Positions 5,323-25,925 of a stretch of 64,000 bases of DNA are shown one piece after another. A program made the translations under genes and the position numbers. The stretch comes from an uncultured Clostridia bacterium. Its GTDB lineage: Bacteria; Bacillota; Clostridia; Christensenellales; CALVMC01. How positions within the stretch are numbered: the stretch's first letter is position 1; each line of letters starts with the position of its first letter. The DNA lies in contig CALVMC010000003.1 of NCBI GenBank assembly GCA_944342015.1, forward strand, positions 5,842 to 69,841. Direction: 5' to 3'. Under the pieces are notes generated by a model. It was given only the letters and a program-made list of their open reading frames with translations, searched no databases and was not told the origin of the DNA.

Positions 5323-5328
5323 GATATT

Positions 5329-5378: not shown

Positions 5379-5879
5379 TCAAATTTGCGGAACGATAACA
5401 ATTATTTCCTTTTTCTGTTTAGAGGCATATTCCAAAGTTTTTTTTGTTCCGCCTTCTTTTCCGTTGAACAATGCAATTACAAGTGAAGAAGAATTTACCA
5501 TATATCTGTTTCTTTCTTGCATACATCCATTTTCGTAATGATTATAAATACACCTAATTTTATCAGCTTTATTAAGAATATTTTTATACCTTAATTGCTG
5601 TTCTAAATCCCATAGTTTTTCCTGACCTTTGCAAGGAATTGCACATTCCAAAAAAATATCGGAGTATCTCTTTTTGAATTCTAATACTATTTCAGCACAC
5701 ATCATATCAAACCCCAAAGCCATTCCTGTTATAAAATACCTTTTACCGTCTTTAATACAATTTTTTATTACTGATTTGGTTTCTTTTCTTGTCAATCTAA
5801 ATCTTCTATCATTTTCATTAAATCCCCAAGGCAATTTTTGATTTCTATGGCCTGTGAAACATACTTTATTATCTAACAT
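5379..5879 (-). CDS. SLOG-fold DUF1273 (YpsA-like) family protein
   Basis: The product starting MLDNKVCFTGHRNQKLP...YFITGMALGFDMMCAEIVL...ALFNGKEGGTKKTLEYA matches recalled DUF1273/YpsA family motifs. The ATG at 5879 follows a GGAG RBS. The longer ORF in the track starts at a TTG. Confidence 0.75.
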   Translation of the reverse strand: MLDNKVCFTGHRNQKLPWGFNENDRRFRLTRKETKSVIKNCIKDGKRYFITGMALGFDMMCAEIVLEFKKRYSDIFLECAIPCKGQEKLWDLEQQLRYKNILNKADKIRCIYNHYENGCMQERNRYMVNSSSLVIALFNGKEGGTKKTLEYASKQKKEIIVIVPQI

Positions 5880-5922
5880 AAATACTCCTTCAACAACTTT
5901 TATAAATAATATAACACTATTT

Positions 5923-5940
5923 ATGGTTGTACGCAACCAT
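5923..5940. promoter_or_regulatory. Palindrome ATGGTTG-N4-CAACCAT in the divergent SLOG/XRE promoter region (candidate XRE operator)
   Basis: 7-bp perfect arms at 5923-5929 and 5934-5940. An extra half-site ATGGTTA lies at 5967-5973. Confidence 0.35.
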
Positions 5941-5996
5941 ATATACAAAATTTTAAATACTAAAATATGGTTATAAATAACTATGAGGTAAATTAA

Positions 5997-6239
5997 ATGA
6001 ATAATGTAAACAGAGCGGTTGCTTTGAGAATTTCAGAATTATTGCAAAGTCAAGGTATCACTCAGTACAGACTTGCAATAAAGAGCGGAATTACTCATTC
6101 TACTTTAAAAAACATAATGCACGAAACTGTTAAAGACAATCTTTTGTCGACGGTTATTTTAATTGCTCGTGGATTTGATATGACTGTCAGCAAATTTCTC
6201 GACAGTCCCCTTTTCTCGGAAGAAAATTTGGATATATAG
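5997..6239 (+). CDS. XRE-family helix-turn-helix transcriptional regulator
   Basis: 80 aa. The segment LRISELLQSQGITQYRLAIKSGITHSTLKNIM is a classic HTH_3/XRE pattern. A GAGG RBS precedes the start. Confidence 0.85.
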   Translation: MNNVNRAVALRISELLQSQGITQYRLAIKSGITHSTLKNIMHETVKDNLLSTVILIARGFDMTVSKFLDSPLFSEENLDI

Positions 6240-6355
6240 TTTTAAATATCATATATAGTTTTCATTTTTTAATTTTACATACAAATATTTGATTCTAAAA
6301 TTTATAATAAAATAGTAAATGAAAAAAATAAGCAAATTTTGTGCTTTTTTTTACA

Positions 6356-6384
6356 TTGAAATCAATCTTTATTCAATGTATAAT
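6356..6384 (+). promoter_or_regulatory. Promoter for the orfA-vapD operon
   Basis: TTGAAA (6356-6361), a 17-nt spacer, then TATAAT (6379-6384) preceded by TG (extended -10). Confidence 0.5.
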
Positions 6385-6400
6385 AATACTATATAAAATA

Positions 6401-6856
6401 AAAAAGGAGCCTAAAGAAATGGAAAAACAATATAAATCAATGACAGAAGAATTAATAGAAAAAGCAAGCAAACAAAAACCAAAAGAAGAAAAGAAAATGG
6501 AAAATGTTCAATACATTTTAATGGACGAAGAAGCTATGCTTAATTCCGGAAGAAAGTTTAATTTTGATTTAATGTATAAAGCATTTGATACAATTTTTTT
6601 AGAAGCAGGATATAAGAAAAACGAGAATGTTACCGAAGGTGTTGAATATTACGGTTGTGATGATTTACCTAAAACTTTTGGCGTGAATTGGCGATTAAAA
6701 GACCAAAGTTGGTTTTTGCCGTACTGTAAAGAATGGATTTGGACTTGTATTAAAAAAAATGGGGATATAGAAATTTATGATGAATTGGAACAAACAAAAA
6801 AATGGAAAAGAATATTGGGCTATTAATTTTGATCTCGATACAAAAGAAATGGAAAA
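6401..6856 (+). repeat. Left copy of the ~455-bp direct repeat (pairs with 24248-24702)
   Basis: Hand alignment gives roughly 18 mismatches and one 1-nt indel over ~455 bp. The repeat covers the RBS, all of orfA and the first ~26 codons of vapD. Confidence 0.9.
6419..6826 (+). CDS. Hypothetical protein (orfA), a possible VapD partner or diverged Cas2-fold paralogue
   Basis: The ATG at 6419 follows an AGGAG RBS. A near-identical paralogue lies at 24265-24678. It overlaps vapD by 50 nt in another frame. Confidence 0.6.
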   Translation: MEKQYKSMTEELIEKASKQKPKEEKKMENVQYILMDEEAMLNSGRKFNFDLMYKAFDTIFLEAGYKKNENVTEGVEYYGCDDLPKTFGVNWRLKDQSWFLPYCKEWIWTCIKKNGDIEIYDELEQTKKWKRILGY

Positions 6857-7205
6857 GTCTTTAGGAAATACAACCAAAGGCTATAGACTTTTAGAAAAAT
6901 CTTTTGAAGAAGTAGGCTTTATTCATCGTCAAGGTTCCGGCTATATTTCTTTAAATAAATTAAATCAATCAGACATAGAAAATATAACAAAATTTTTATC
7001 ATATAAACACGAATGGTTATGTGACTCTATAAAAACATTCGACGCAACAATTATAAATGAAGAAAAGTTTTCATTAGAAAACGAAATTAAAGCATTTAAG
7101 AAAGAAAAACAAATAGAAATAGAAGAAAACAATACAGCATTAACTTTTGAAGATTATTTAAAGCAAGTAAAGAATAAATCAAAAAACAATGAATTTTCAA
7201 GATAG
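6777..7205 (+). CDS. vapD: VapD-family (Cas2-fold) endoribonuclease-like protein
   Basis: YWAINFDLDTKEMEKSL...GYRLLEKSFEEVGFIHRQGSGYIS matches the recalled VapD N-terminal pattern (YAIAFDL ... GF..QGSVY). The start codon (6777 or 6780) is uncertain. Confidence 0.7.
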   Translation: MMNWNKQKNGKEYWAINFDLDTKEMEKSLGNTTKGYRLLEKSFEEVGFIHRQGSGYISLNKLNQSDIENITKFLSYKHEWLCDSIKTFDATIINEEKFSLENEIKAFKKEKQIEIEENNTALTFEDYLKQVKNKSKNNEFSR

Positions 7206-7213
7206 GAGTAAGT

Positions 7214-7861
7214 ATGAAAAAAATAAATACTTTATTTTTAATAATATGTTCAATAATATGTTTATCATTAAGTTTGTCAGCTTGTGTTCCGACTAAATTT
7301 CCACAAAACGATGATAAAGAATATAAATTCTCAAAATATTTTGATATAACTGTAGAGAATAAATATTTAAGCACCGATTGTTATAACCGTTATATTTTCG
7401 TTTCAAAAATAAACGATTCTAGTCCTTATTGGTATTGGATAGGTGAAATTAAAGAAATAAAAAATATTAAAATAAAACAAATAAAAGAGTTTAACGAATA
7501 CAGTCTCGATACAGATCTTAAAAATTTACAAGAAGCAGATTTAAGAGTCGGTTGGTATAATTCTTTTCTCGAATATGAAACAAATAAAATAGAAGAAACT
7601 TTAGGAACCGAAGCTGATCCGGGAGACTACAATGCTTTAGATATAGCTTCTGGTGGTAAAAAATTTTATTATATAAACGAAATCATCGATGAAAATAAAA
7701 TTGAAATTGTTATGAATGTTAAATTTGGTAATTTTCTTATAACGGCTTTAGAAGACGATAACGGTATGCACTATTTAGGACTGATTTTATACAGCACGCA
7801 AGATAATTTATCTAAATTTGTAAGTGTCGATTTTTCCGAAGCAACCGTTGTTTTTAATTAA
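7214..7861 (+). CDS. Lipoprotein of unknown function
   Basis: Signal peptide MKKINTLFLIICSIICLSLSLSAC with a lipobox L-S-A-C. An AGGAG RBS precedes the start. Confidence 0.75.
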   Translation: MKKINTLFLIICSIICLSLSLSACVPTKFPQNDDKEYKFSKYFDITVENKYLSTDCYNRYIFVSKINDSSPYWYWIGEIKEIKNIKIKQIKEFNEYSLDTDLKNLQEADLRVGWYNSFLEYETNKIEETLGTEADPGDYNALDIASGGKKFYYINEIIDENKIEIVMNVKFGNFLITALEDDNGMHYLGLILYSTQDNLSKFVSVDFSEATVVFN

Positions 7862-7884
7862 TTTATTATTAAATAGGGGGGAAT

Positions 7885-9546
7885 ATGTTAGGAGAATTCT
7901 TTTATAATATATCTAAATGGATTTTCGATATTATTGAAGAATTATATAATCTATGGCTTAAAGTCGGAGATTTGGAAACTGTTTCCCAAATTTTAACTAC
8001 GAATGAAACAGTAAGAAATATCTATATAGTTTTTGTTGTTGCCGCACTCATTTTAACCGGTATATTTGTTTCCGCTCGGGCTTTAAGTAAAATGGTTGGA
8101 GTGACAAACGGAGTACAAGAAAATACTTTTTCTTATTTAAAACAAGTTTTTTTTAATTTTATAAAATACATATTAGTTATACCGGTAGTTATTTGTGTAA
8201 TAGCATTATCTTCCGCTTTTTCTCAATTTATAACAGGAACAAATAATGAATTGTCTATGGGTGCTCGAGTTTTTGAACAGGTCGCAGCAACAACTTTACA
8301 AGAAGATATAGTATCGGAACAAGAGACTATAGAATACGAACTTTTAATTAATAATTTGGAAAATTTAAAAGAAGATTCTTCTATTACTGATAATGTTTTA
8401 ATTGATAAATTAAAATATGTTTTAAATGAACCTATTAAAAATAATTTAAAATTATATATTTCAGAAAAATATTTTACCGTTGTTAAAAAAGTTATTGATA
8501 AAAACTTAATAGAAACAGATTTAACTACTAATCAATTAAACACTTTAAGGCAAGATATATTAGCTCTTAATATTATTAGTACATATTCCGATAAAGAAAA
8601 ATTAATTAATGATACTTATGATTTTGTAAATATTTCAGAAAAAGCAAGTAATAAATTTTATAAACTTACCGCAAGTCAATTAAATAAAGTTTATAATATG
8701 GACGAGTATAATGTTTTTATGGCGATTCTTTTCGGCGGTATTTTTATTTTTATTTTATTAATTACGATTTTATCATTAGCCGAACGACTGTTTTCAATAA
8801 TTATGTTGGTTCTTATCGGCCCGATACCGATATCGGTAAGCATTTTAGATGATAGTAAAAGATATGAAATTTGGCGAGATACTCTTTTATCAAAAATTTT
8901 AGGTGTTACCGGAATTATGTTGGCATTATCTTTATATTGCACATTAAGTCCTATTTTAGTAAATACTTTGGGAGCGAATAACCTGTTAATAGAACTTATC
9001 ATTTTACTAGGTGGCTTATTATTTGCAATGAAGGGCGGAGAAATAGTAGCCGGTTTAATAGGTTCCGGGTTAGGAGTTCAAGAAGGACTTAGCTCAATGC
9101 GTTCACTTCTTGCTATAGGGGGCGGTTTAAAAGCAACAGCTATCGGAGTAAAAGGAGCTCTGATAGGAAGTAAAAGCGGAATAAATGGTGCTTCCGGTGT
9201 TTCTTCTGTAAACGGAAAAACTTCCTTTATTCAAAACATAGCTTCTCGTGGCGGTGTTTTAGGAAAAACGGTAGGAGCAACAGCAACAGCTTCCGCTTTT
9301 ACAAGAAGGGGAGTACAAAAATTTAGATATGGCAATAGTGAAGGAAATAGAATAAGTCCAAGACAACAATACAATGTAAGTAAGTTGCAGGCTAGAAAAA
9401 CTAGAAAAGAGCTTATAAAAGAAAACAGAATGCAAGAATTAAATAATAAAAAAGCTACTGTTTTTAATAATAAATATAAAGATAAATTAACTAAATACAC
9501 CGACAGACAACAAGAAAAAACAAATAAAAAAATTAATAAAGAATGA
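7885..9546 (+). CDS. Polytopic membrane protein, VirB6/TrbL-like T4SS channel candidate
   Basis: 553 aa with multiple hydrophobic segments (N-terminal and around aa 275-400). It has a Gly-rich segment and a basic C-terminal tail. It lies immediately upstream of the VirB4-type ATPase. Confidence 0.5.
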   Translation: MLGEFFYNISKWIFDIIEELYNLWLKVGDLETVSQILTTNETVRNIYIVFVVAALILTGIFVSARALSKMVGVTNGVQENTFSYLKQVFFNFIKYILVIPVVICVIALSSAFSQFITGTNNELSMGARVFEQVAATTLQEDIVSEQETIEYELLINNLENLKEDSSITDNVLIDKLKYVLNEPIKNNLKLYISEKYFTVVKKVIDKNLIETDLTTNQLNTLRQDILALNIISTYSDKEKLINDTYDFVNISEKASNKFYKLTASQLNKVYNMDEYNVFMAILFGGIFIFILLITILSLAERLFSIIMLVLIGPIPISVSILDDSKRYEIWRDTLLSKILGVTGIMLALSLYCTLSPILVNTLGANNLLIELIILLGGLLFAMKGGEIVAGLIGSGLGVQEGLSSMRSLLAIGGGLKATAIGVKGALIGSKSGINGASGVSSVNGKTSFIQNIASRGGVLGKTVGATATASAFTRRGVQKFRYGNSEGNRISPRQQYNVSKLQARKTRKELIKENRMQELNNKKATVFNNKYKDKLTKYTDRQQEKTNKKINKE

Positions 9547-9549
9547 AAA

Positions 9550-12306
9550 ATGGGGAAGATAATGAAAATAATTCCGCCAAGAAGCCGATTAAAAAGGGAA
9601 ATATCAAAAAATATCTATTGGTCTGATTTAATATTTATAACTATTATGGCTATTTTAGGCTTAATTATTATTTTTGCTAATTTTAATATATATTTAAGAT
9701 TAGGACTTTTAATTATATTATTAATTATTACGGTCTTTTGTTTAATAAGAACAGGAGTTGATAGGGGATATAATTTTATTTTTTCTAGCATTAAATATGC
9801 TTTAAGTCCTAAAGAATATAATAAAAATTCTAAACATAATGTTTATTTTTTATCTGCTATTAAAGATATATCTGATAATAAAATTAATTATATAAATGGC
9901 GAGTTTTCAAAAGTTTTAAAAATTTATCCTAACTCCTTTAATTATCTTATCGATATCGAACAGGACAATTTAGTTGAAAATTTATCCACTGCTTTAAAAA
10001 ATATTAAAAAAAGCAGTATTATTGCGGTAAATGAAAGAGTTTCATATAGAGATAATATAAATTTTTATGAGACTTTAAAAAATGAAATAGAAGAGCAATT
10101 TAATAAAAATAAAAATACTTATAATACTACTAGACTATATGAAATAGATATCTTATTAAAAAATTTAAAAGAATTATCAACGGAAGAAAGTTCCGATATT
10201 GAAAATGTTCCCTTAAAAAAAGGCTACTATTTATTATTATATAATGTAACTGATGAAGAAGTTGATTTAACTAGAAATCTTTTAATTAACGCAGGATTAA
10301 ATACAAAAGTTTTAAATAATAAAGAAATCGCTATTTTTAGCAAATATTGTTATACTGATACTTTTTTTGCTAAAATTTTTGATGATATTAAAGAAGAAGA
10401 TTATTTAGATTTAATTTTACCGGAAAGAATTAAGTTTTATGCTAATAAAATTGAACTCGATAATGTAAAATATGGAGTTTTTTATATAGATAAATTTCCG
10501 CTATTTGTAAATAATGAGTGGCTTAGACCTTTATTTGAATTAAACTATGTCAGAACTTATTTTCATTTAAATAAAATTAATGATATTTATGCTATTAAAC
10601 AAATTGAAAAAGCTCTATCTATCTGTAGGGATAAATATATCGAAGGTAATAATAAAAAATCTGTTGAAAATAAACTTTATGATAATATTGAAATTTTTGA
10701 TAATTTACTAAATGATTTAAATAAAGGCGAATGTCTTATTCATTGTGACATTTTTCTTTTAGTTGAAGATATAGGAGACAATATTAAAACCGTAAGTTCT
10801 ATTTTACATTCTTATGGCATTTTTGAAGGACGATTTTTATATAAGGGCGAAGAAGTAATATTTAATATTGCCCCTTCGCAATCAAATAAATTAGCAAGAT
10901 ACGGTATTGATTTGCCTTCTGAAACACTTTCGGCAGGCTATCCGTTTATAGGTAATATCATAAACGATAAAGAAGGTATTTATCTTGGAACAGATGAAAA
11001 CGAACAGCCGGTTCTTTGGAATAAAATGATACATAGAAAAAGTTATAATAGCGATTTAGACAGAACCAGCGGAAATGTCGGAATTTTCGGTACAACCGGC
11101 AAAGGCAAAAGTCATAAATTAAAATTAGATTTAAAATCTTGGGCTTGTCGTAATTCTAAAATTATAATATTCGATGTAGAAGACGAATACAGATTTTTAG
11201 GAAATTTATTTGGAGCTTCAATAATTGATGTAGGGGGCGGTAACGAAAATGAACGCATTAATCCTTTACAAATTTTTCCAAAAGCAATTAATGATGAAGA
11301 AGATAATAAAAAAAGAGTGGAACAGTTTAATAAAGATATAAGTTTTATATATTCTCAAAAAAATAATAGTGGTAATATTCCTAATTTCACAGAAAACGCA
11401 TTAAATGATAATCAAATAAATTCTCAGCTTATTTTCTTACAGGCATTTCATAAACTTGCTATTCCGGAAATTTCCGAAGATTGCAACACAAAATTAATTA
11501 ATATTATTGCTGATATTTATAAAAAATTTAATATTACCAATGAAACTGATATTTCAAAATTATCTGCTGATGATTTTCCTTTATATTGTGATATCTATAA
11601 AGAAGTTAATAAAAGACTAAAAATATCGCTAAAAGAAAAAGATGATTATAATATTAGGATATATGAAAAACTCGAAAATTATCTTAAATTATTTATAGAT
11701 AATGGTGCCTATGAAGGGTTATGGGGTAGACCGACTACTATAAACTTAAATAATAATATTGTTATTTTATCTTTTAGAAATCTTCTATCACAGAAAAATT
11801 ATTCTGTTTGTAATGCTCAATCTTATCTTTTATTTAGATTTATGGAGACTGAAATAATTAAAAATAAAGAGTATTCAGACAGAACCGGTAAAGAAAGATA
11901 TTTATCTATTGTTTTTGACGAAATTCAAAAATTAATAGATTCAAGATTGCCGATAGCTTTTACCGCAGTTGCCGATATCGCAAATCGTGTTAGAAAATAT
12001 CTTGCAAGTATTGTTTTAGCAACGCAAAATATCGAAACTTTTATGGGAACAAATGAAGAAATGAAAAAATCAGCAAATGCGATTTTAAATGCTTTACAAT
12101 ATAAATTTATTTTCAATTTAGAAGGGCGTAATTTAGATCATTTAATGGAGCTTTACGGAAGTTCTATGAATTTGACTGAAATTGATTATGATATTATAAG
12201 AAAACTCAAAAGGGGAGAGTGCCTTTTTATGATAACAAATCATAAAAGATTAAAAATAAAGGTTTCTAATTTTCCCGGAGAAGAGATTTTTACTAGAGCT
12301 CTTTAA
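9550..12306 (+). CDS. VirB4/TraE-type type IV secretion ATPase
   Basis: 918 aa with two N-terminal TM segments. Walker A is GTTGKGKSH and IIIFDVEDEY...INPLQIF follows. Walker B-like is SIVFDEIQK, and the LATQNIETF motif is present. An alternative start lies at 9562. Confidence 0.9.
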   Translation: MGKIMKIIPPRSRLKREISKNIYWSDLIFITIMAILGLIIIFANFNIYLRLGLLIILLIITVFCLIRTGVDRGYNFIFSSIKYALSPKEYNKNSKHNVYFLSAIKDISDNKINYINGEFSKVLKIYPNSFNYLIDIEQDNLVENLSTALKNIKKSSIIAVNERVSYRDNINFYETLKNEIEEQFNKNKNTYNTTRLYEIDILLKNLKELSTEESSDIENVPLKKGYYLLLYNVTDEEVDLTRNLLINAGLNTKVLNNKEIAIFSKYCYTDTFFAKIFDDIKEEDYLDLILPERIKFYANKIELDNVKYGVFYIDKFPLFVNNEWLRPLFELNYVRTYFHLNKINDIYAIKQIEKALSICRDKYIEGNNKKSVENKLYDNIEIFDNLLNDLNKGECLIHCDIFLLVEDIGDNIKTVSSILHSYGIFEGRFLYKGEEVIFNIAPSQSNKLARYGIDLPSETLSAGYPFIGNIINDKEGIYLGTDENEQPVLWNKMIHRKSYNSDLDRTSGNVGIFGTTGKGKSHKLKLDLKSWACRNSKIIIFDVEDEYRFLGNLFGASIIDVGGGNENERINPLQIFPKAINDEEDNKKRVEQFNKDISFIYSQKNNSGNIPNFTENALNDNQINSQLIFLQAFHKLAIPEISEDCNTKLINIIADIYKKFNITNETDISKLSADDFPLYCDIYKEVNKRLKISLKEKDDYNIRIYEKLENYLKLFIDNGAYEGLWGRPTTINLNNNIVILSFRNLLSQKNYSVCNAQSYLLFRFMETEIIKNKEYSDRTGKERYLSIVFDEIQKLIDSRLPIAFTAVADIANRVRKYLASIVLATQNIETFMGTNEEMKKSANAILNALQYKFIFNLEGRNLDHLMELYGSSMNLTEIDYDIIRKLKRGECLFMITNHKRLKIKVSNFPGEEIFTRAL

Positions 12307-12360
12307 ATTTGTTATTTTACTTGTCAAAATTTTTAGTTTTTGGTAAAATATAGTAAATAA

Positions 12361-20334: not shown

Positions 20335-20340
20335 TTATCT

Positions 20341-21447
20341 TTATCCCCTACTTATATCAAAATCGGAACCTTTTTCATTTAACAGCGATTTAAAATTTAA
20401 TATTTCACTAACGCAACTATCGTTTAAATTATTTGTTAATTGATAAAAAGATTTTTTTAATTTATATCTGCAATATTTAACGGTTTTTTTATTATTGATA
20501 TTAATTTTTAACGGAGCAACTTTTTTATTATATAACGAATTGTTATTATTAATAGAAACTGCAGTTTTAATTATTTTGTTTCCTATTCTTGAATATAAAT
20601 CTTTAATTATTTTTTCAGAATAGTTTAAAAATTTAGAGTTATTCGTTTTATTTAAAAGTTCTTCTCTTTCTTGTAATTTTATTTTAAAATCGTTAAAAAG
20701 CGAATTATTTTTATTATTAGTTAAAAGGTAGTTTGCTATATTATCAATACTTCTTTTTAAGTTATTATCTAGATTTTTTGAATTATAATTTATAACTTTA
20801 TTAAGTTTTAAACTTAAATTTTTTAATTTAAAATTTAAAATATTGTCATCGGAACAGTTAATAGAATTTATAATTTCATCTCTGTAATTATAAATTCTGT
20901 AATAATTTTCAATTAACCATTTTTCGCCGAGTTCTTTGAAATTATTTAAATTATCTATAGAAATCTTTCCTTTTTTTAGAAATTCTTTTTCGCCTTTATA
21001 ATTTAAAAATTCCGGTTGTTTCTGCCAAAAAAGAAAATGGATATGTCTATGTTCGGTGTCATCGTGGTAGCAAGTTAGATAATCTATATTATTGAAATTT
21101 AATTTATTGTCATTAAAGCCTTCGATAGATTTTTTTATAAATTTAAATGAATCTTCTTCATTAAAAATATTAAATATTTTCTCGTCTCCCCTAAAAGAAA
21201 TCAGATTATCCCAAATTAAAGTTTGACTTGCAGTCAGATATGATAATTTTTCTTTAATTTGATTAATATTGAGTTTATTGCCTTTTGAATCTATAATGTT
21301 AAAAGTTAATTCGTTTGTGCTTCCGTGGTCTCTAGTAACATAATTAGCCCAATTGTAACTAGCCGAACAGTCATAAAAAGATCTGTTTTCGTTTGTACTA
21401 TCTATAAATTTAGTTTTAACGACAATACGACTGTTCTTAATTTTCAT
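20341..21447 (-). CDS. Relaxase (MOBP/MOBQ-like HUH nuclease domain)
   Basis: The histidine triad CYHDDTEHRHIHFLFW matches the HxDxxxHxH relaxase motif. The gene lies upstream of the coupling protein, and an AGGAG RBS precedes the start. Confidence 0.72.
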   Translation of the reverse strand: MKIKNSRIVVKTKFIDSTNENRSFYDCSASYNWANYVTRDHGSTNELTFNIIDSKGNKLNINQIKEKLSYLTASQTLIWDNLISFRGDEKIFNIFNEEDSFKFIKKSIEGFNDNKLNFNNIDYLTCYHDDTEHRHIHFLFWQKQPEFLNYKGEKEFLKKGKISIDNLNNFKELGEKWLIENYYRIYNYRDEIINSINCSDDNILNFKLKNLSLKLNKVINYNSKNLDNNLKRSIDNIANYLLTNNKNNSLFNDFKIKLQEREELLNKTNNSKFLNYSEKIIKDLYSRIGNKIIKTAVSINNNNSLYNKKVAPLKININNKKTVKYCRYKLKKSFYQLTNNLNDSCVSEILNFKSLLNEKGSDFDISRG

Positions 21448-21862
21448 TATTATCTCCTGTTAAAAAAGATATATCATCGATAAAATTAATTTCATTTTTC
21501 ATTTCATCAATTTTATTTTTAATTTCTTCCGGAAGTTCTGTTATGTAGTAACCTTTATTTAAAAGAGTTTCGGAAGGAGTAATTTTAGATATTTCGTTTG
21601 TTTTAATATTGTAAAGGCTCAATGTTAAAAAATAATTAAAAAGCGAATTATTGTTAATTTCATTAATTTTTGAATTTAAAATATTTAACTTTCTGTTTAC
21701 TGAATCCAAGCTAACACTGTTTTTATAATAGTTGTCTAAAGCAAAAGAAACAAGAAAGTTTAAGGCTTCGTTGGAACTTTTAAACTTTTTATCGTTATAA
21801 AACTTATTAAATTTTTTTAAAACTTCAGAATTTTGAAATCTGATATGGAAATCGTTTTTCAA
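21437..21862 (-). CDS. Hypothetical protein, possible relaxosome accessory protein
   Basis: 141 aa. It overlaps the relaxase start by 11 nt, and the start codon is TTG. The call rests on position only. Confidence 0.35.
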   Translation of the reverse strand: MKNDFHIRFQNSEVLKKFNKFYNDKKFKSSNEALNFLVSFALDNYYKNSVSLDSVNRKLNILNSKINEINNNSLFNYFLTLSLYNIKTNEISKITPSETLLNKGYYITELPEEIKNKIDEMKNEINFIDDISFLTGDNNEN

Positions 21863-21902
21863 GCTAACACCAAGGTTCGGGCTTTCCCGATGATTAGGGG
21901 GT

Positions 21903-21923
21903 ACGGGGGGATTTTCCCCCCGT
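21903..21923. other. Perfect GC-rich hairpin ACGGGGGG-ATTTT-CCCCCCGT
   Basis: An 8-bp G/C stem sits in an otherwise extremely AT-rich region, within a locally GC-rich patch at 21875-21925. It lies ~40 nt upstream of the mob operon start. A TTCTTTTT tract follows on the plus strand. Confidence 0.6.
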
Positions 21924-21997
21924 TCTTTTTAATGATAGCGAATTCTCAAAGATTTGTCAATAATTTTCTAAAAATGTATTTTAAAGAGCATAAGAGA

Positions 21998-22073
21998 GTT
22001 TCCCATTTAGCATTTTTCCCTTTACTTTAGTAAAGGGAAATTATATATATAGCATTTCCATTTTATGGGAAAC
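21998..22073. repeat. Nested inverted repeats (oriT/oriV candidate)
   Basis: A perfect 12-bp inverted repeat TTTCCCTTTACT / AGTAAAGGGAAA lies at 22015-22040. It is flanked by GTTTCCCAT (21998-22006) and ATGGGAAAC (22065-22073). TAGCATTT(T)CC direct repeats are also present. Confidence 0.6.
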
Positions 22074-22457
22074 AAATTTTAGAAAAAATGGAAACCAATT
22101 TTTCTTTTATTTATAATTAATAGTGTAGAAATATAGATAATTTAAACCCAAGACAGCAAAAAATAAATTTAAAAAACGAGTAGTTATATTAAAACTGTTT
22201 AAAACTGAGATTAAAATAATTAACAGTCTGACAGATTTACGGACAAATTAAACTAGCCGAGATTATATACTCTCACTTAAATTAAAACAAGAATCAAATA
22301 AACCGCTTAAATTAATTCTAAGCAATTTTTTAATTATTTTGATAAAAACTATTCAGAAAACATTAAAATTGAAATTTGCCCCATTTAAAGCCGTCAAACA
22401 AGACATTACATTATATGATTTTCAAATTATTGATAATAAAAACCGATAAATTAATTT

Positions 22458-22712
22458 TTGTTGAAAAAATTACAAAATAACAAACTAACTTGTTGTTTTG
22501 TTGAAAAAATAACTTGTTAGGAATATAACTTGTTAAAAAAATTACAAAATAACAAAATTACTTGTTATTTTGTTAGAAAAACAACAAAACAACTTGTAAT
22601 AATGTTAAAAAGATATTTTATTAACAAACTAACTTGTTATTTTGTTAAAAAGTTAAAAAAATTACTTGTTATTTTGTTAAAATGTTATTTTGTTGAAAAA
22701 ATTACAAAATAA
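22458..22712. repeat. Array of at least 9 copies of the 10-mer ACAAAATAAC/GTTATTTTGT in both orientations (parC/centromere-operator or iteron candidate)
   Basis: Exact or near-exact copies lie near 22472, 22492, 22544, 22564, 22581, 22636, 22667, 22684 and 22703. Two form convergent inverted pairs. The array ends just before the parA promoter. Confidence 0.75.
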
Positions 22713-22713
22713 C

Positions 22714-22742
22714 TTTACATTTTTAATTTTTTTTGTTACAAT
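22714..22742 (+). promoter_or_regulatory. parA promoter
   Basis: TTTACA (22714-22719), a 17-nt spacer, then TACAAT (22737-22742). It lies 25 nt upstream of the parA ATG. Confidence 0.5.
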
Positions 22743-22766
22743 TTATTTATTGGAGATTATTTAAAT

Positions 22767-23531
22767 ATGAAAACAGGAACAGTTATTACTTTTGTGAATC
22801 AGAAAGGCGGAGTTGGAAAGTCAACAACCGTTTTTATAACAGCTATTGAACTAATAAAAAAGCATTACAGTGTTTTAGTTATCGACCTTGATCCGCAAGC
22901 TACTTTAACCGGAGTTTGCGGAGACATTAGCAATAAAATCACCGTGAGAGATTGGCTTAATAATGATAATTTAAAAGTAGAAGAACTAATTCAAAAAACA
23001 TCATTGGGCTTTGATATAATTCCGGCTAATCCATTTATGGAATTGACGGAAAACGAATTAATAAATACAGTCGGGCAATATAAGATTTTGAATGAGAAGA
23101 TTAAAGAAATAAAAAAGAATTATAACTTTATATTAATAGATTGTCGCCCGACCTTGGGAATTTTGACTAAAAGCGGACTATTTGCTTCTGACTTTTTAGT
23201 TATTCCGGTTAAGCCGGAAATCGCTTCGGTTATGGGAGTGGAAGTACTGATTAACACATTAGTGCAAATTGAAAAATATGACAATAAAGAGTTTAATATA
23301 GCAGGAATTCTTTTAACTATGGTTAACAGCAGAACGACATCGTATAAAGATATAAAAGATTATTTAGTTTCTGTCTTTGGAAAGATTAATACTAAAATTT
23401 TTGATACGAGTATAAGAAATTCGGTTAAATGCAGTGATTCTTTCGGCGAAGGTAAAACTATAGACGAAAAATCAGCTGTAGGAATAGATTATAAAGATTT
23501 TGTCGAAGAATTATTAAAAGTAGTGCTTTAA
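22767..23531 (+). CDS. parA: ParA/Soj-family partition ATPase (small type Ib-like)
   Basis: Deviant Walker A NQKGGVGKSTT. Further motifs are VIDLDPQ and ILIDCRP. Confidence 0.92.
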   Translation: MKTGTVITFVNQKGGVGKSTTVFITAIELIKKHYSVLVIDLDPQATLTGVCGDISNKITVRDWLNNDNLKVEELIQKTSLGFDIIPANPFMELTENELINTVGQYKILNEKIKEIKKNYNFILIDCRPTLGILTKSGLFASDFLVIPVKPEIASVMGVEVLINTLVQIEKYDNKEFNIAGILLTMVNSRTTSYKDIKDYLVSVFGKINTKIFDTSIRNSVKCSDSFGEGKTIDEKSAVGIDYKDFVEELLKVVL

Positions 23532-23543
23532 GGAGAAGAAAAA

Positions 23544-23846
23544 ATGACAAGTTTTAAAAATTTAAAATTATTTAATCAATTTAACCAAATTGAAGAAGAA
23601 GGTAATAAGGAAAACTCAATCACAAAAGAAAATAATAAAAGTGAAAATGAAGAAAAAATTCTAAAAGAAAATAAAGAAGTTAATAACTATAAAAAGGAAA
23701 TTAAAAAAGACAATAAAAAAGACATTTTTATTACAACGAGAGTTGATAAAGATACTAAAGCAAAGTTTAAAATTGCTTGTATTAATAAAGGTATAAAAGA
23801 ATCGGAAGCTTTATCGTTTCTGATTAATAAATTTATAAATTCATAA
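23544..23846 (+). CDS. Small ribbon-helix-helix protein, ParG-like centromere-binding candidate
   Basis: 100 aa. It has a K/E-rich disordered N-terminus and a C-terminal IFITTRVDKDTKAKFKIACINKGIKESEALSFLINKFI segment consistent with an RHH fold. It lies directly downstream of parA. Confidence 0.5.
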   Translation: MTSFKNLKLFNQFNQIEEEGNKENSITKENNKSENEEKILKENKEVNNYKKEIKKDNKKDIFITTRVDKDTKAKFKIACINKGIKESEALSFLINKFINS

Positions 23847-23862
23847 GAAAAAGGGGGGTAAA

Positions 23863-24249
23863 ATGAATATTTTTAATTTTTTATTAACTGCACCGATTAA
23901 TATACCGGGCTTTTCTGAAAATAATACTGATGAGCTTTCTCAAGGCTTATACAAAGTATTACAAGTATCAGAGTATGTAATGTGGGGATTAGCCGTAGCA
24001 AGTGCAATAATTGCGATGATTATAATTAGTGTATCGGCCTTTCAGACAATGACAAGTGCTAACAAAGAAGGAGTTTGGCAAAATTTAGCAAGTAAATTTA
24101 AAATTGTTTTAATTAGTTTAGGTATTATTTGCGGTGCTTCAATTCTTGTCGGTATTGTACTGTACATTTATCGAACAGTCGGAATAATGCCGAGTACTCC
24201 GGAAGGAATTACTTGTGTAGAACTTTTAAGAACATTTATTAAATTTTAA
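23863..24249 (+). CDS. Small membrane protein (two TM segments), possibly a VirB2/TrbC-like T4SS component
   Basis: 128 aa with hydrophobic helices at ~aa 40-65 and ~85-110. A GGGGGG RBS precedes the start. The function is inferred only from size, topology and context. Confidence 0.4.
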   Translation: MNIFNFLLTAPINIPGFSENNTDELSQGLYKVLQVSEYVMWGLAVASAIIAMIIISVSAFQTMTSANKEGVWQNLASKFKIVLISLGIICGASILVGIVLYIYRTVGIMPSTPEGITCVELLRTFIKF

Positions 24250-24702
24250 AAAGGAGCTTAAATAATGGAAAAACAATATAAATCAATGACAGAAGAGTTA
24301 ATAGAAAAAGCAAGCAAACAAAAACCAAAAGAAGAAAAGAAAATGGAAAATGTTCAATACATTTTAATGGACGAAGAAGCTATGCTTAATTCCGGAAGAA
24401 AGTTTAATTTTGATTTAATGTATAAAGCATTTGATACAATTTTTTTAGAAGCAGGATATAAGAAAAACGAGAATGTTACCGAAGGTGTTGAATATTACGG
24501 TTGTAATGATTTACCGAAAACTTTTGGTGTAAATTGGCAACTAAAAGCCCAAAATTGGTTTTTGCCGTTCTGTAAAGAATGGATATGGACTTGTATTAAA
24601 AAAAATGGGGATATAGAAATTTATGATGAATTGGAACAAACAAGAAAATGGAAAAGAATATTGGGCAATAAACTTTGATCTCGATACAAAAGAAATGGAA
24701 AA
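24248..24702 (+). repeat. Right copy of the ~455-bp direct repeat (pairs with 6401-6856)
   Basis: See the left copy. The offset between the copies is 17847 bp. Confidence 0.9.
24265..24678 (+). CDS. orfA paralogue (hypothetical protein)
   Basis: 137 aa, differing from the 6419-6826 product at only a handful of residues. Confidence 0.6.
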   Translation: MEKQYKSMTEELIEKASKQKPKEEKKMENVQYILMDEEAMLNSGRKFNFDLMYKAFDTIFLEAGYKKNENVTEGVEYYGCNDLPKTFGVNWQLKAQNWFLPFCKEWIWTCIKKNGDIEIYDELEQTRKWKRILGNKL

Positions 24703-24730
24703 TACAGGCAAATATAAGAACAATTTTTAG
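24623..24730 (+). pseudogene. Truncated vapD remnant (first ~26 codons, then divergence and a stop)
   Basis: It reads MMNWNKQENGKEYWAINFDLDTKEME, then NTGKYKNNF and a stop. Homology with the intact vapD ends near 24702. Confidence 0.65.
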
Positions 24731-24746
24731 TTTGCATATTAAATAC

Positions 24747-24845
24747 AGCTGTTTTTAATAATAGATATAAAGATAAATTAATTAATTAATTACACCGACA
24801 GACAACAAGAAAAAACAAATAAAAAAATTAATAAAGAATGAAAAT
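24747..24845 (+). pseudogene. Fragment matching the 3' end of the VirB6-like gene (9453-9549)
   Basis: A shared ~90-bp string ...GTTTTTAATAATA(A/G)ATATAAAGATAAATTA...ACACCGACAGACAACAAGAAAAAACAAATAAAAAAATTAATAAAGAATGAAAA runs directly into the Fic start codon. Confidence 0.7.
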
Positions 24846-25634
24846 ATGAAAGAAGAAAATTTAGATAGTCTGTATAATAAATATCTTAAATTAAAAGAAA
24901 ACAGAAATGTTTCTGATACCGAGAAAGAACGGTTCTATAATGAACTGTCTATTGCCATAAGCTATGATTCAAACGCAATAGAAGGAAATACTTTTACTTA
25001 CGATGAAACAAGGCTCTTAATAAAAGAAGGGGTAACAACAAATTTAAGAAGTTTCAGAGAACACCAAGAAATAATAGGTCATAAAAACGCATTTGATTTT
25101 ATTTATAATTCAGTAAAAAATAAAGAATTAATTTTAGATTTGAATTTTATAAAAAAAATTCACAAACTTGTATTATCGCAAAATGAAGAAGCCGGTAAAA
25201 TAAGAAAAAGTAAAGTTTTTATCGGTAATCCCTTCGATATAAAATATAAACCTACCGAACCGGAAAATGTTGAAAATGAATTGCAGATTTTAATAGATAT
25301 CATTAATAAAACAATGGATTTTTATAAACAAAAGAATTTTGATTATACTGAAAAAGATATAGATAACATTTTTACGGAAATAGCACAGCACCATATAGAA
25401 TTTGAAATGATACACCCTTTTATTGACGGTAACGGCAGGGTTGGAAGACTTATTTTGAATTTAGAACTTATTAATTTAGGTTTTATTCCCATAGATATTA
25501 AAAACGAAGAAAAGTCTGAGTATTATAAAGGTTTTACTGAATATCAAAAAAATAACAGTATTAATTTAATGAAAAATATTATTATTACTAATGAAGAAAG
25601 AAGTTTGTCTTTATGGATAGAAAACTTTAATTAA
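24846..25634 (+). CDS. Fic-domain protein (class II, with an N-terminal inhibitory motif)
   Basis: The Fic motif is HPFIDGNGRVGR. The N-terminal SNAIEGN fits the (S/T)xxxE(G/N) auto-inhibition motif. Confidence 0.9.
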   Translation: MKEENLDSLYNKYLKLKENRNVSDTEKERFYNELSIAISYDSNAIEGNTFTYDETRLLIKEGVTTNLRSFREHQEIIGHKNAFDFIYNSVKNKELILDLNFIKKIHKLVLSQNEEAGKIRKSKVFIGNPFDIKYKPTEPENVENELQILIDIINKTMDFYKQKNFDYTEKDIDNIFTEIAQHHIEFEMIHPFIDGNGRVGRLILNLELINLGFIPIDIKNEEKSEYYKGFTEYQKNNSINLMKNIIITNEERSLSLWIENFN

Positions 25635-25925
25635 AATTCATAAATAAACATTAATAATTTTTTTTATTTTTAAATTTAAAAATTTTCAGGCGGAAAAACC
25701 ATAAAGCAAAATCATATACGGAAAATCCGTGTACGGTAAGTGTTCTGTTTTTAATTGAAATGATGAAGATATTTTTAAATTAATGCTTGCAAATACTATA
25801 TTCAAATTAATATGTTAATATTAATTATTTATTTTGTTTTTTTGTATTAAAAATCCGTTTATTCACTATTGAAATACTCTTTTTTTTATTATATAATAAA
25901 ATTATGATATTTTAAGGAGGAAATT

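What the first reader, a model, noticed from the sequence alone, without database searches (positions are those of the whole stretch)
5379..25700. AT-rich ~20-kb plasmid-like conjugative island with no recombinase, wedged against the CRISPR-Cas9 locus
From ~5379 to ~25700 the DNA is visibly much more A+T-rich than both flanks. This is a by-eye impression and was not computed. Gene content also switches to plasmid functions. These include a rep-like wHTH protein and ParA plus a small RHH protein behind a 10-mer repeat array. The transfer set comprises a relaxase, a VirD4-type coupling protein, a VirB4-type ATPase, a VirB6-like polytopic protein and a 1612-aa surface protein. Cargo genes are VapD, Fic, XRE and SLOG. 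No tyrosine or serine recombinase, DDE transposase or tRNA target is visible in any frame. This therefore looks like a small conjugative plasmid captured in the chromosome, or an assembly chimera, rather than a classical ICE. Its left edge is ~20 nt from the predicted tracrRNA promoter of an apparently intact Cas9 system, which is an odd place for a foreign replicon to persist.
Basis: partly seen in the sequence, partly recalled or inferred. Interest (0 to 1): 0.72.

Follow-up and report, generated by a model that had tools for sequence, protein, structure and literature searches.

The report
Conjugative plasmid integrated at orphan antitoxin gene
The AT-rich tract is a 17.8-kb conjugative plasmid that most likely entered the chromosome without any recombinase of its own, by ordinary homologous recombination with a leftover antitoxin gene beside the Cas9 locus, and plasmid-free strains of the same gut species carry Cas9 spacers aimed at this same plasmid.

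Summary
The tract 5035-25925 is 25% GC against 37.5% in the rest of the window. It holds plasmid and transfer genes, and no integrase, transposase or tRNA.

It is not one island.
- A 17,846-bp plasmid unit (register 6419-24264) sits inside a small resident islet: SLOG, XRE, vapW, vapD stub, virB6 3' remnant, fic.
- At least ten assemblies from strains of the same species carry that islet, or a reduced form of it, alone between cas9/tracrRNA and the flavin oxidoreductase gene.

The unit is flanked by 440-bp direct repeats (96% identical) of vapW, the antitoxin gene of a VapW-VapD pair.
- SNP markers show reciprocal hybrid copies.
- Junction contigs from seven or more samples place the crossover in at least four different intervals.
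- An 18,058-bp contig from another sample wraps a circle of exactly 17,846 bp.

This argues for recurrent, reversible Campbell-type recombination by host enzymes. It argues against a site-specific ICE or a simple assembly chimera.

All seven readable arrays of plasmid-free strains hold 1-4 spacers against the plasmid (14-15 of 103; nine perfect). Every protospacer has C at PAM position 5. None of 319 spacers from another taxon with the identical repeat matches.

Each component is known; the combination is a new variant. Reads could not be checked.

The parts
23..327 (+). CRISPR array (context). It runs off the window start. The 36-nt repeat is GTTTTAGTTCCCTTTTAATTTTTGGTATGGTATAAT. Four full spacers and one partial are visible, and none matches the plasmid.
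457..5034 (-). cas2 (457-777), cas1 (770-1663) and cas9 (1651-5034, 1127 aa, intact). Type II-C-like operon of the host.
5236..5357 (-). tracrRNA gene: promoter 5357-5329, anti-repeat 5315-5281 (31 of 35 positions match the repeat), terminator hairpin 5256-5236. The sequence from the promoter through the terminator hairpin is identical in plasmid-free L001.
5379..5948 (-). YpsA/SLOG gene of the resident islet. It is present in some plasmid-free strains. In others it is deleted, leaving a 42-nt 3' remnant.
5997..6239 (+). XRE-family HTH gene, resident. It is present in every strain of the species examined, including L027, which lacks vapW and fic.
6419..6858 (+). Left direct repeat: vapW-L (ORF 6419-6826) plus the first 27 codons of vapD. 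Hybrid copy with a chromosomal 5' marker and plasmid-type 3' markers. The islet promoter lies at 6356-6384.
6419..24264 (.). The 17,846-bp plasmid unit, in one register (any register between the two repeats is equivalent). GC 0.253.
6777..7205 (+). vapD toxin gene, full length. It overlaps the vapW end by 50 nt.
7214..7861 (+). Predicted lipoprotein (signal peptide plus lipobox, judged by eye), within the transfer operon. Function inferred.
7885..9546 (+). VirB6-like polytopic protein (MMCAP2_0566 / Mbov_0396 family, just under the curated cut-offs).
9550..12306 (+). VirB4 ATPase of the Mollicutes type (Mbov_0397 family, E 3e-126, 422 bits against a cut-off of 590).
12548..13375 (+). wHTH replication-initiator-like protein with 15-nt tandem repeats at 12897-13028. 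The oldest shared spacer targets these repeats.
13455..18293 (-). 1612-aa repeat-rich surface protein, a presumed mating adhesin. It holds most of the protospacers.
18283..20334 (-). Type IV coupling protein (T4SS-DNA_transf, E 7e-48; CD1115 family).
20341..21447 (-). MobL / MobP3-like relaxase.
21437..21862 (-). 141-aa protein upstream of the relaxase, a presumed relaxosome accessory protein (inferred from position only; no family hit).
21863..22063 (.). Candidate oriT: a G+C-rich patch with a GGGGGGATTTTCCCCCC hairpin and a perfect 12-nt inverted repeat at 22015-22040. Inferred.
22402..22729 (.). Array of ACTTGTTATTTTGTT-type repeats upstream of parA, a centromere-like or iteron-like site.
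22767..23846 (+). parA (22767-23531) and a 100-aa RHH protein (23544-23846): the partition pair.
23863..24249 (+). 128-aa membrane protein, Mbov_0395-family pilin-like (weak, 23.8 bits). In the circular form it lies directly upstream of vapW-vapD-lipoprotein-virB6-virB4.
24265..24704 (+). Right direct repeat: vapW-R (ORF 24265-24678) plus an 81-nt vapD stub. Hybrid copy with a plasmid 5' marker and a chromosomal 3' part that is 99.3% identical to the islet allele of L020/L025.
24765..24844 (+). 80-nt remnant of the virB6 3' end (90% identical to 9470-9549), part of the resident islet.
24846..25634 (+). fic gene of the resident islet, present in plasmid-free strains.
25926..27980 (+). Host FMN / pyridine-nucleotide oxidoreductase gene; right host flank.

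Best explanation
The AT-rich tract is composite.

The plasmid. A 17,846-bp conjugative plasmid carries these modules:
- replication: a wHTH initiator-like protein;
- partition: ParA, an RHH protein and centromere-like repeats;
- addiction: the VapW-VapD toxin-antitoxin pair;
- transfer: a candidate oriT, a MobL relaxase, a coupling protein, a Mollicutes-type VirB4 / VirB6 / pilin-like set, a lipoprotein and a 1612-aa adhesin.

The integration. The plasmid is inserted into a resident 2.6-3.2-kb islet (SLOG, XRE, vapW, vapD stub, virB6 remnant, fic). In this species the islet lies between the tracrRNA/cas9 locus and an oxidoreductase gene. Insertion needs no element-encoded recombinase. A single reciprocal crossover by the host's homologous recombination machinery, between the plasmid vapW and the orphan chromosomal vapW (about 440-475 bp of homology), gives a Campbell-type cointegrate flanked by hybrid vapW copies. 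The reverse crossover releases the circle. The event is recurrent.

The CRISPR link. The species' type II-C Cas9 system next door targets this plasmid. Plasmid-free strains each carry 1-4 matching spacers with an N4C PAM. The carrier in the window shows no match in the four full spacers visible.

Shown versus inferred.
- Shown: the anatomy, the islet-only site in sister strains, the circular permutation, the hybrid markers, the multiple crossover intervals, the spacer matches and the PAM.
- Inferred: RecA dependence, autonomous replication, transfer proficiency, that the orphan VapW neutralises the plasmid VapD, and that the integrated state in this window is physically real rather than an assembler's choice.
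For: 1. A conspecific genome, L001 (about 96% identical in the flanks), lacks window 6858-24262. It keeps one vapW between XRE and fic.
2. At least ten further assemblies show the islet, or a reduced form of it, without the plasmid.
3. The direct repeats 6419-6858 and 24265-24704 share 423 of 440 positions and lie 17,846 nt apart.
4. SNP markers fit a reciprocal crossover. The left copy has a chromosomal 5' part and a plasmid 3' part. The right copy has a plasmid 5' part and a chromosomal 3' part that is 99.3% identical to the L020/L025 islet allele.
5. NODE_3798 (ERZ24773261, 18,058 bp) has pilin-like, vapW, full vapD, lipoprotein and virB6 contiguous. Its first 77 nt recur at position 17,847, so its period equals the repeat spacing.
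6. Junction contigs recur in other samples.
   - Left junctions (XRE, vapW, full vapD, lipoprotein): L042, L043, L044.
   - Right junctions (pilin-like, vapW, vapD stub): L014 (a 155-kb scaffold, 99.95% identical to the window) and L039.
   - Crossovers fall in at least four intervals (alignment columns 98-114, 121-155, 155-363, 441-501) and on two chromosomal haplotypes.
7. No integrase, transposase or tRNA was found.
8. vapD matches PDB 9kan_A at E 2e-15. A vapW profile matches 9kan_B ('VapW antitoxin') at E 3e-7. VapWD is an experimentally validated toxin-antitoxin system (PMC11980593).
9. Spacers: 14-15 of 103 unique spacers from seven conspecific arrays hit the plasmid unit, nine of them 30/30. 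They are often the first or second spacer next to cas2. C occupies PAM position 5 in 15 of 15 protospacers, while C makes up 0.119 of the element. None of 319 spacers from another taxon with the identical repeat matches (Fisher p = 1.3e-9).
Against: - No reads were available. In a de Bruijn graph, a free plasmid plus an islet-only chromosome gives the same topology as an integrated copy. Plasmid and chromosomal vapW share a 207-nt identical run through which an assembler could switch. Many contigs do break at vapW (L028, L036, L037, L038).
- For the same reason the circular contig does not prove a free plasmid.
- Integration and excision are reciprocal, so the markers cannot give polarity.
- Integration splits the pilin-like gene from virB6/virB4, so the integrated copy may not be transfer-proficient.
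- The origin of the resident islet remains unexplained.
- The carrier's full CRISPR array was not seen.
- Several family assignments fall below curated cut-offs: VirB4 (422 against 590 bits), VapD (78 against 100 bits) and the pilin-like protein (24 against 40 bits).
Confidence: 0.8

Rival explanations
1. Assembly chimera. The strain carries only the islet, and the plasmid is free. The assembler threaded chromosome, vapW, plasmid, vapW, chromosome through the shared vapW sequence.
For: - A 207-nt identical run is shared by the plasmid and chromosomal vapW.
- Many short-read contigs end at vapW.
- The graph topology is the same for both states.
- All data are metagenome assemblies.
- The GC gap is 13 points.
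Against: - Both junction types recur in independent assemblies from at least seven samples and several assemblers: the window, L014, L039, L042, L043, L044 and L045.
- Several switch points lie in identity runs of only 17, 33 or 58 nt. That is at or below usual final k-mer sizes, so real reads must carry those marker combinations.
- The islet holds vapD and virB6 fragments contiguous with host DNA in every strain. DNA of this plasmid type has therefore truly been in this chromosomal site.
Confidence: 0.1
2. The integrated state is ancestral. The islet-only strains are deletion derivatives, made by recombination between the two vapW copies and possibly selected by CRISPR self-targeting.
For: - The reciprocal marker pattern fits deletion as well as insertion.
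- The islet is visibly decaying: SLOG is deleted in some strains, leaving a 42-nt remnant, and L027 lacks vapW and fic.
- Every islet-only array has anti-plasmid spacers, which would make an integrated copy lethal.
Against: - The vapD stub and virB6 remnant to the right of vapW-R are present in carriers too, so the relic predates the present insertion.
- Islet vapW alleles are diverse (76-96% amino-acid identity), whereas the plasmid copies are nearly identical across samples.
- At least four crossover intervals on two chromosomal haplotypes would require many independent deletions or conversions.
- Both directions probably occur, so this rivals the main explanation only on polarity.
Confidence: 0.15
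3. A classical ICE, or an integrative plasmid, that uses an unrecognised site-specific recombinase or its relaxase, with vapW as its attachment site.
For: - Several element proteins have no family assignment (141 aa, 215 aa).
- The relaxase gives weak hits to Sin/Bin resolvase chains (E 0.07-0.8).
- From my own knowledge, some relaxases can catalyse site-specific integration.
Against: - The crossover point varies over about 400 nt among junctions. A site-specific enzyme gives one fixed point.
- The repeats are 440 bp of a coding gene, not a short core.
- No Tyr/Ser/DDE domain appears in any ORF.
- The resolvase hits are about 15 bits and not significant.
Confidence: 0.03

Closest known systems
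Hfr/episome-type integration of conjugative plasmids by host homologous recombination (F plasmid through shared IS elements; my own knowledge). Chromosomally inserted plasmids are also reported in PMC8431375 and PMC5991714, seen as titles and abstracts only.
   Same: - A circular conjugative plasmid and the chromosome share a homologous segment.
- A single crossover gives a cointegrate flanked by direct repeats of that segment.
- The process is reversible and needs no plasmid integrase.
   Different: - The homology is not an IS or transposon. It is an orphan antitoxin gene left by an earlier copy of the same kind of plasmid.
- The host is an uncultured gut Clostridia species.
- The site adjoins a CRISPR-Cas9 locus that targets the plasmid.
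Spiroplasma citri pSci plasmids (for example pSci4, NC_007390)
   Same: - Small AT-rich plasmids of 13-35 kb.
- ParA, a lipoprotein, a large adhesin, a T4SS coupling protein, and the gene trio Mbov_0395 pilin-like, Mbov_0396 membrane protein, Mbov_0397 VirB4 in that order.
   Different: - Only about 25-30% amino-acid identity.
- A different host phylum and the standard genetic code.
- Here vapW-vapD-lipoprotein lies between the pilin-like gene and virB6.
- A MobL relaxase is present here.
Mycoplasma integrative conjugative elements (Mbov_0395-0399 gene set)
   Same: The VirB4, VirB6-like and pilin-like proteins hit the NCBIfam models built on these elements and keep the same order. No peptidoglycan hydrolase is recognisable.
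   Different: - From my own knowledge, those elements integrate with a DDE transposase. None is present here.
- Scores are below the curated cut-offs.
- This element has plasmid replication and partition genes and a MobL relaxase.
VapW-VapD type II toxin-antitoxin systems (PMC11980593; PDB 9KAN)
   Same: - The antitoxin gene lies directly upstream of vapD and overlaps it.
- Sequence matches to both crystallised chains.
   Different: - Here one copy is plasmid-borne and complete, and a second chromosomal copy is an orphan antitoxin with an 81-nt toxin stub.
- Toxicity and neutralisation were not tested.
Chromosomal anti-addiction antitoxins (chromosomal ccd of Erwinia; my own knowledge) and the engineered E. 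coli strain carrying ccdA beside a plasmid-targeting CRISPR locus (PMC6478593)
   Same: A chromosomal antitoxin homologous to that of an invading plasmid sits beside a CRISPR locus with spacers against that plasmid. In the engineered strain this gave a relative fitness of 15.2 in the presence of plasmid donors.
   Different: Here the arrangement is natural and its function is untested. The same gene also serves as the plasmid's integration homology.

Membership tests
Classical ICE | Conjugation module (relaxase, coupling protein, VirB4) | tested here: met
   MobL (E 1e-11), T4SS-DNA_transf (E 7e-48), VirB4_plasma (E 3e-126).
Classical ICE | Element-encoded integrase (tyrosine, serine or DDE) | tested here: not met
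   No such family appears in Pfam or NCBIfam scans of all main ORFs, nor in a Pfam scan of ten leftover ORFs.
Classical ICE | Short att sites with a fixed crossover point, often at a tRNA gene | tested here: not met
   The flanks are 440-bp gene copies. Crossovers fall in at least four intervals. There is no tRNA in the window.
Conjugative plasmid | Replication initiator | tested here: inconclusive
   The wHTH protein hits PHROG 4707 'replication initiation protein' (E 2.5e-22). Its N-terminus is 40-48% identical to DUF6017 proteins on Clostridia and Enterococcus plasmids. The origin and the activity were not shown.
Conjugative plasmid | Partition system with a centromere | tested here: met
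   ParA (AAA_31, E 1e-41), a 100-aa RHH protein, and an upstream repeat array at 22402-22729.
Conjugative plasmid | Circular extrachromosomal form | tested here: inconclusive
   NODE_3798 is circularly permuted with a period of 17,846 nt. An integrated copy would give the same assembly graph. Read coverage was not available.
Campbell-type cointegrate by homologous recombination | One copy of the shared segment in the empty site and one in the circle, two direct copies flanking the insert | tested here: met
   Islet-only loci have one vapW. The circular contig has one. The window has two, 17,846 nt apart.
Campbell-type cointegrate by homologous recombination | Flanking copies are reciprocal hybrids, with a variable crossover position | tested here: met
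   Marker patterns in winL/winR, L014, L039 and L042-L045.
Campbell-type cointegrate by homologous recombination | Dependence on host RecA | not testable with these tools
   Needs genetics in a cultured host.
Mycoplasma ICE / Mbov_0395-0397 transfer system | Proteins reach the curated NCBIfam cut-offs | tested here: not met
   Scores against cut-offs: VirB4 422.5 against 590; Mbov_0396 67.2 against 70; MMCAP2_0566 89.7 against 90; pilin-like 23.8 against 40. Related proteins, not members.
Mycoplasma ICE / Mbov_0395-0397 transfer system | DDE transposase for integration | tested here: not met
   None found.
VapW-VapD toxin-antitoxin | VapD toxin homologue | tested here: met
   PDB 9kan_A at E 2e-15; NF041506 at E 5e-22 (78 bits, below the equivalog cut-off of 100).
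VapW-VapD toxin-antitoxin | VapW antitoxin encoded directly upstream | tested here: met
   Single sequence against 9kan_B at E 1.6e-5; seven-sequence profile at E 2.9e-7. The ORF overlaps the vapD start by 50 nt.
VapW-VapD toxin-antitoxin | Toxicity of VapD and its neutralisation by VapW | not testable with these tools
   Shown for other pairs in PMC11980593, not for this one.
Type II-C CRISPR-Cas9 (context) | cas9-cas1-cas2 only, a tracrRNA with an anti-repeat, protospacers with a consistent PAM | tested here: met
   Gene order; anti-repeat matching the repeat at 31 of 35 positions, with promoter and terminator; C at PAM position 5 in 15 of 15 protospacers.

The most novel reading that the evidence does not exclude
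The orphan vapW beside cas9 may not be a passive relic. It may form a two-part anti-plasmid unit with the CRISPR-Cas9 locus. When Cas9 destroys the incoming VapWD plasmid, chromosomal VapW protects the cell from the VapD toxin left behind. This would be the natural counterpart of the engineered ccdA-plus-CRISPR strain of PMC6478593. The plasmid in turn uses the same gene as its homology patch to enter the chromosome, where Cas9 targeting would be suicidal for the host. A single antitoxin gene would then be both the host's anti-addiction device and the plasmid's docking site, in a long-running conflict. The age of the conflict is suggested by the spacers: the oldest shared trailer spacer and the newest leader-end spacers both target the plasmid.
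Probability: 0.25. Interest if true: 0.8.

Novelty: new variant of a known kind. Interest (0 to 1): 0.6.

Why it matters
This case shows, with natural population data, how a conjugative plasmid can become chromosomal with no integrase. A leftover antitoxin gene from an earlier copy supplies the homology, and the event recurs in different strains.

It also gives a rare natural pairing of three things: a plasmid, its integrated form, and the CRISPR-Cas9 arrays of sister strains that target it. The PAM can be read directly from the data (N4C). Together these make several questions testable in a human-gut Clostridia species:
- whether chromosomal orphan antitoxins relieve the cost of CRISPR immunity against addictive plasmids;
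- whether integration protects a plasmid from Cas9;
- whether self-targeting drives loss of the integrated copy.

For genome annotation there is a practical lesson. An 'ICE without an integrase' should be checked for long flanking gene repeats and compared with sister genomes before it is called either new or chimeric.

The transfer genes extend the Mollicutes-type VirB4 / VirB6 / pilin-like set to a plasmid of a host that is probably walled and spore-forming. That host description rests only on a GerA germination gene and a spore permease gene seen near the locus in the conspecific contig L020.

Tried and rejected
- Megablast of the whole tract against PLSDB plasmids and INPHARED phages found no match.
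- Exact-protein look-ups of the window's VirB4 and oxidoreductase found nothing on record.
- A VirB4 relative search in JGI metagenome contigs and in IMG/VR found none.
- The word-indexed homologue search for VirB4 returned only two proteins. The exhaustive search shows a sparse lineage, with the best non-self identities at 42, 36 and 30%.
- The relaxase gave weak hits to Sin/Bin resolvase chains (E 0.07-0.8, about 15 bits). I rejected these as non-significant.
- The regions upstream of vapW and of the oxidoreductase gene looked similar, which could have marked old attachment repeats. The local alignment score was 24, against 19.8 +/- 3.0 for shuffles, so I rejected this.
- VapW against VapD of this element by BLASTP showed no detectable similarity, so I make no statement about catalytic residues.
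- The interval between the oxidoreductase gene and cas9 in the other taxon with the identical repeat (L053) holds one 1889-aa gene at normal GC and no islet.
- The more distant Cas9 loci L002-L010 (28-49% identity) were too far removed to serve as an empty site.
- Logan contigs collapse the CRISPR array, so the carrier's full array could not be recovered.
- The 141-aa, lipoprotein and RHH proteins gave no useful PDB or PHROG hits.

Full report
**1. The observation**

The tract 5035-25925 is 25.2% GC and the rest of the window 37.5%. The 1-kb windows inside range from 0.18 to 0.29 and those outside from 0.31 to 0.44, so the two sets do not overlap. Tetranucleotide usage also differs: the correlation is 0.81 plasmid versus host and 0.97 host versus host.

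The gene content is as described:
- a YpsA/SLOG protein and an XRE regulator;
- VapD;
- a VirB6-like membrane protein and a VirB4 ATPase;
- a wHTH replication-initiator-like protein;
- a 1612-aa surface protein;
- a coupling protein and a MobL/MobP3-type relaxase;
- ParA and a small RHH protein behind a repeat array;
- Fic.

No integrase, resolvase or transposase family was hit by any main ORF or by ten leftover ORFs, and the window has no tRNA gene. The left host flank is a cas9-cas1-cas2 operon with its array. The tracrRNA gene lies upstream of cas9: promoter 5357-5329, anti-repeat 5315-5281, terminator 5256-5236, all on the minus strand. Its promoter begins 22 nt from the SLOG stop codon.

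**2. The tract is two things**

A repeat search found a long direct repeat inside the tract. Positions 6419-6858 and 24265-24704 share 423 of 440 positions and lie 17,846 nt apart. A second, 80-nt repeat joins the 3' end of virB6 (9470-9549) to the sequence just before fic (24765-24844).

The repeated gene had no Pfam hit. It matches the 'VapW antitoxin' chain of PDB 9KAN (E 1.6e-5 alone, 2.9e-7 as a seven-sequence profile). The gene that overlaps its end matches the VapD chain of the same entry (E 2e-15). VapW-VapD is an experimentally validated type II toxin-antitoxin system (PMC11980593). The right-hand copy is followed by only the first 27 codons of vapD, then the virB6 remnant, then fic.

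**3. Sister genomes**

A Cas9 search of species-representative genomes returned a contig of an uncultured Eubacteriales bin (L001) that is about 96% identical to both flanks. It lacks window 6858-24262. It also lacks most of the SLOG gene, keeping its last 42 nt. It does keep XRE, one vapW, the vapD stub, the virB6 remnant and fic between cas9 and the oxidoreductase gene, all at about 25% GC.

Look-ups by exact protein then gave at least ten further assemblies of the same species with only the islet. Some have SLOG and some do not. One (L027) has only XRE between cas9 and the oxidoreductase gene. SLOG, XRE and fic are therefore resident genes, not cargo of the conjugative unit.

**4. The circular form**

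An 18,058-bp contig from another sample (ERZ24773261, NODE_3798) is 99.9% identical to the unit. In it the pilin-like gene, vapW, full-length vapD, the lipoprotein gene and virB6 are contiguous. Its first 77 nt recur at position 17,847, so it goes once round a circle whose length equals the repeat spacing in the window.

In this form the genes parA, RHH, pilin-like, vapW, vapD, lipoprotein, virB6, virB4 and rep lie contiguously on one strand. The order pilin-like, virB6, virB4 matches the Mbov_0395-0396-0397 order of Mycoplasma ICEs and Spiroplasma pSci plasmids.

**5. The mechanism of insertion**

In a three-way alignment the sequence upstream of the left copy matches the islet, and the sequence downstream of the right copy matches the islet. 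Inside the gene the markers are reciprocal. The left copy has the chromosomal marker near its 5' end and plasmid-type markers in its 3' third. The right copy has the plasmid 5' marker and a 3' part that is 99.3% identical to the islet allele of strains L020 and L025. This is the signature of a single reciprocal crossover between a circle and the chromosome.

The junctions recur in other samples:
- Left junctions (XRE, vapW, full vapD, lipoprotein) appear in L042, L043 and L044.
- Right junctions (pilin-like, vapW, vapD stub) appear in L014 and L039. L014 is a 155-kb scaffold that is 99.95% identical to the window except within vapW.
- The apparent crossover falls in at least four intervals of the alignment (columns 98-114, 121-155, 155-363 and 441-501) and on two chromosomal upstream haplotypes.

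A site-specific recombinase would give one fixed point. A variable point within about 475 bp of homology is what host homologous recombination gives. This explains why no recombinase is encoded.

**6. How far an assembly artefact is excluded**

I could not see reads. A free plasmid plus an islet-only chromosome gives the same graph as an integrated copy. The two alleles share a 207-nt identical run, and many contigs do end at vapW.

Three points argue against an artefact. First, the junctions recur across samples and assemblers. Second, several switch points lie in identity runs of 17, 33 or 58 nt, which are too short for a k-mer-level mis-join at usual final k. Third, every strain carries plasmid-derived fragments (the vapD stub and the virB6 end) contiguous with host DNA. 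I put the chimera reading at about 0.1.

Polarity cannot be read from the markers. The relic to the right of vapW-R is present in carriers too, the islet alleles are diverse, and there are several crossover intervals. Together these favour recurrent insertion into a pre-existing islet, with excision as the reverse reaction.

**7. The Cas9 locus next door**

The 36-nt repeat ends in TGGTATAAT. The tracrRNA anti-repeat shows that crRNAs are read in the GTTTTAG orientation, opposite to cas9. From my own knowledge, this is the arrangement of Neisseria-type II-C systems.

I extracted 103 unique spacers from the seven readable arrays of plasmid-free strains.
- 14-15 of them match the 17.8-kb unit with three or fewer mismatches, and nine match 30/30.
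- Every one of the seven arrays has at least one match.
- In four arrays the first or second spacer next to cas2 is a match.
- The last spacer, shared by two arrays, targets the 15-nt tandem repeat of the rep-like gene.
- All matches lie between 9894 and 18840, in virB4, the rep-like gene, the surface-protein gene and the end of the coupling-protein gene. None lies in the islet.

In the crRNA orientation the fifth base 3' of the protospacer is C in 15 of 15 cases. C makes up 11.9% of the element, so the PAM is N4C.

A scan for the exact repeat in metagenome contigs supplied a control. It found 29 further arrays in human-gut assemblies, but they belong to another taxon: Cas9 is 38% identical and GC is about 48%. 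None of their 319 spacers matches the plasmid (Fisher p = 1.3e-9).

The carrier in the window shows four full spacers and one partial, none matching. The rest of its array lies beyond the window and could not be recovered.

**8. What the plasmid is like**

There is no nucleotide match in PLSDB or in the phage collection. At protein level the closest plasmids are Spiroplasma pSci-type plasmids and 18-25-kb Clostridium estertheticum plasmids, at about 25-30% identity. In an exhaustive search of 1.84 billion representative proteins the VirB4 has only three relatives at 30% identity or above: 42, 36 and 30%.

The transfer proteins fall just below the curated cut-offs of the Mollicutes ICE families. 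They are related to those families but are not members. No peptidoglycan hydrolase is recognisable.

A G+C-rich patch with hairpins at 21863-22063, upstream of the relaxase operon, is a candidate oriT. That assignment is inferred.

**9. Comparison and novelty**

Each piece is known:
- plasmid integration by host recombination (Hfr formation; my own knowledge);
- orphan antitoxins as anti-addiction genes (my own knowledge);
- CRISPR targeting of plasmids;
- the VapWD toxin-antitoxin system.

What appears new is the combination. The homology patch is an orphan antitoxin left by an earlier copy. It adjoins the CRISPR-Cas9 locus that targets the same plasmid. And all four junction states are visible in natural populations. 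My two literature searches on this point turned up no description of this arrangement, but they were not exhaustive.

The engineered E. coli strain of PMC6478593 carried ccdA beside a plasmid-targeting CRISPR locus and gained a large fitness benefit when facing plasmid donors. It is a close experimental analogue, and it suggests that the orphan vapW may help Cas9 immunity pay off. That is my most novel reading, at about 0.25 probability.

**10. What remains open**

- How the islet first arrived.
- The roughly 70-nt fic-like tip at the end of NODE_3798.
- Whether the 80-nt repeat gives an alternative 15.3-kb excision product.
- The carrier's full array.
- The 13-point GC gap between plasmid and host.

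**Verdict**

The extent of the element, its cargo and its mechanism of insertion are corrected. I rate it a new variant of a known kind, with interest 0.6.

Noticed in passing
L048-L085 (human-gut metagenome contigs), compared with window 23-327: The identical 36-nt CRISPR repeat occurs in 29 or more arrays of a different taxon. That taxon has about 48% GC, and its Cas9 is only 38% identical (Cas1 45%, Cas2 63%). Repeat and tracrRNA normally co-vary with Cas9, so an identical repeat with so distant a Cas9 is odd.
   Followed up: partly
window 23-327: Each repeat ends in TGGTATAAT, an extended -10 box. The tracrRNA anti-repeat implies that crRNAs are read opposite to cas9. This suggests repeat-embedded promoters, as in Neisseria type II-C systems.
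   Followed up: partly
window 5118-5199: A 23-nt tandem repeat (3.5 copies, TTAATTTAAATTCAGCATATTAG) lies between the tracrRNA terminator and the cas9 start codon. It may be a regulatory element.
   Followed up: no
window 9894-18840: All 15 protospacers lie in one half of the plasmid: virB4, the rep-like gene, the surface-protein gene and the end of the coupling-protein gene. None lies in the half holding the relaxase, oriT, parA, vapWD and virB6. This may be an acquisition hotspot, or variation among plasmid variants.
   Followed up: no
window 12897-13028: The rep-like gene holds 15-nt tandem repeats that encode NQGLE-like and NTNIL-like units. The oldest spacer, shared by two arrays, targets this repeat. 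It has one mismatch to the plasmid variant L011 and three to the window's plasmid.
   Followed up: partly
window 9470-9549 and 24765-24844: Recombination between this second 80-nt direct repeat (90% identical) would excise a 15,295-bp circle lacking vapD, the lipoprotein gene and virB6. A 15,504-bp contig (L034, 100% identical to window 10481-23375) has a compatible length, but its end was not seen.
   Followed up: no
L029/L033 (NODE_3798) last ~70 nt; window 8105-8146 and 24970-25011: The circular contig ends in fic-like sequence joined to virB6 through a 42-nt stretch of about 80% similarity. This is either a real virB6-fic recombinant in that sample or an assembly tip.
   Followed up: partly
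window 5421-5980; L001 9613-9655: The SLOG gene is polymorphic. It is present in about half of the strains. In the others it is deleted, leaving a 42-nt 3' remnant next to the tracrRNA promoter.
   Followed up: partly
L027 4790-5260: One strain has XRE directly next to the oxidoreductase gene, with no vapW or fic, yet its array holds three anti-plasmid spacers. It is either the ancestral empty site or a further deletion.
   Followed up: partly
window 49000-50000 and 55000-57000: Two further low-GC patches (0.31-0.32) lie in the host part of the window.
   Followed up: no
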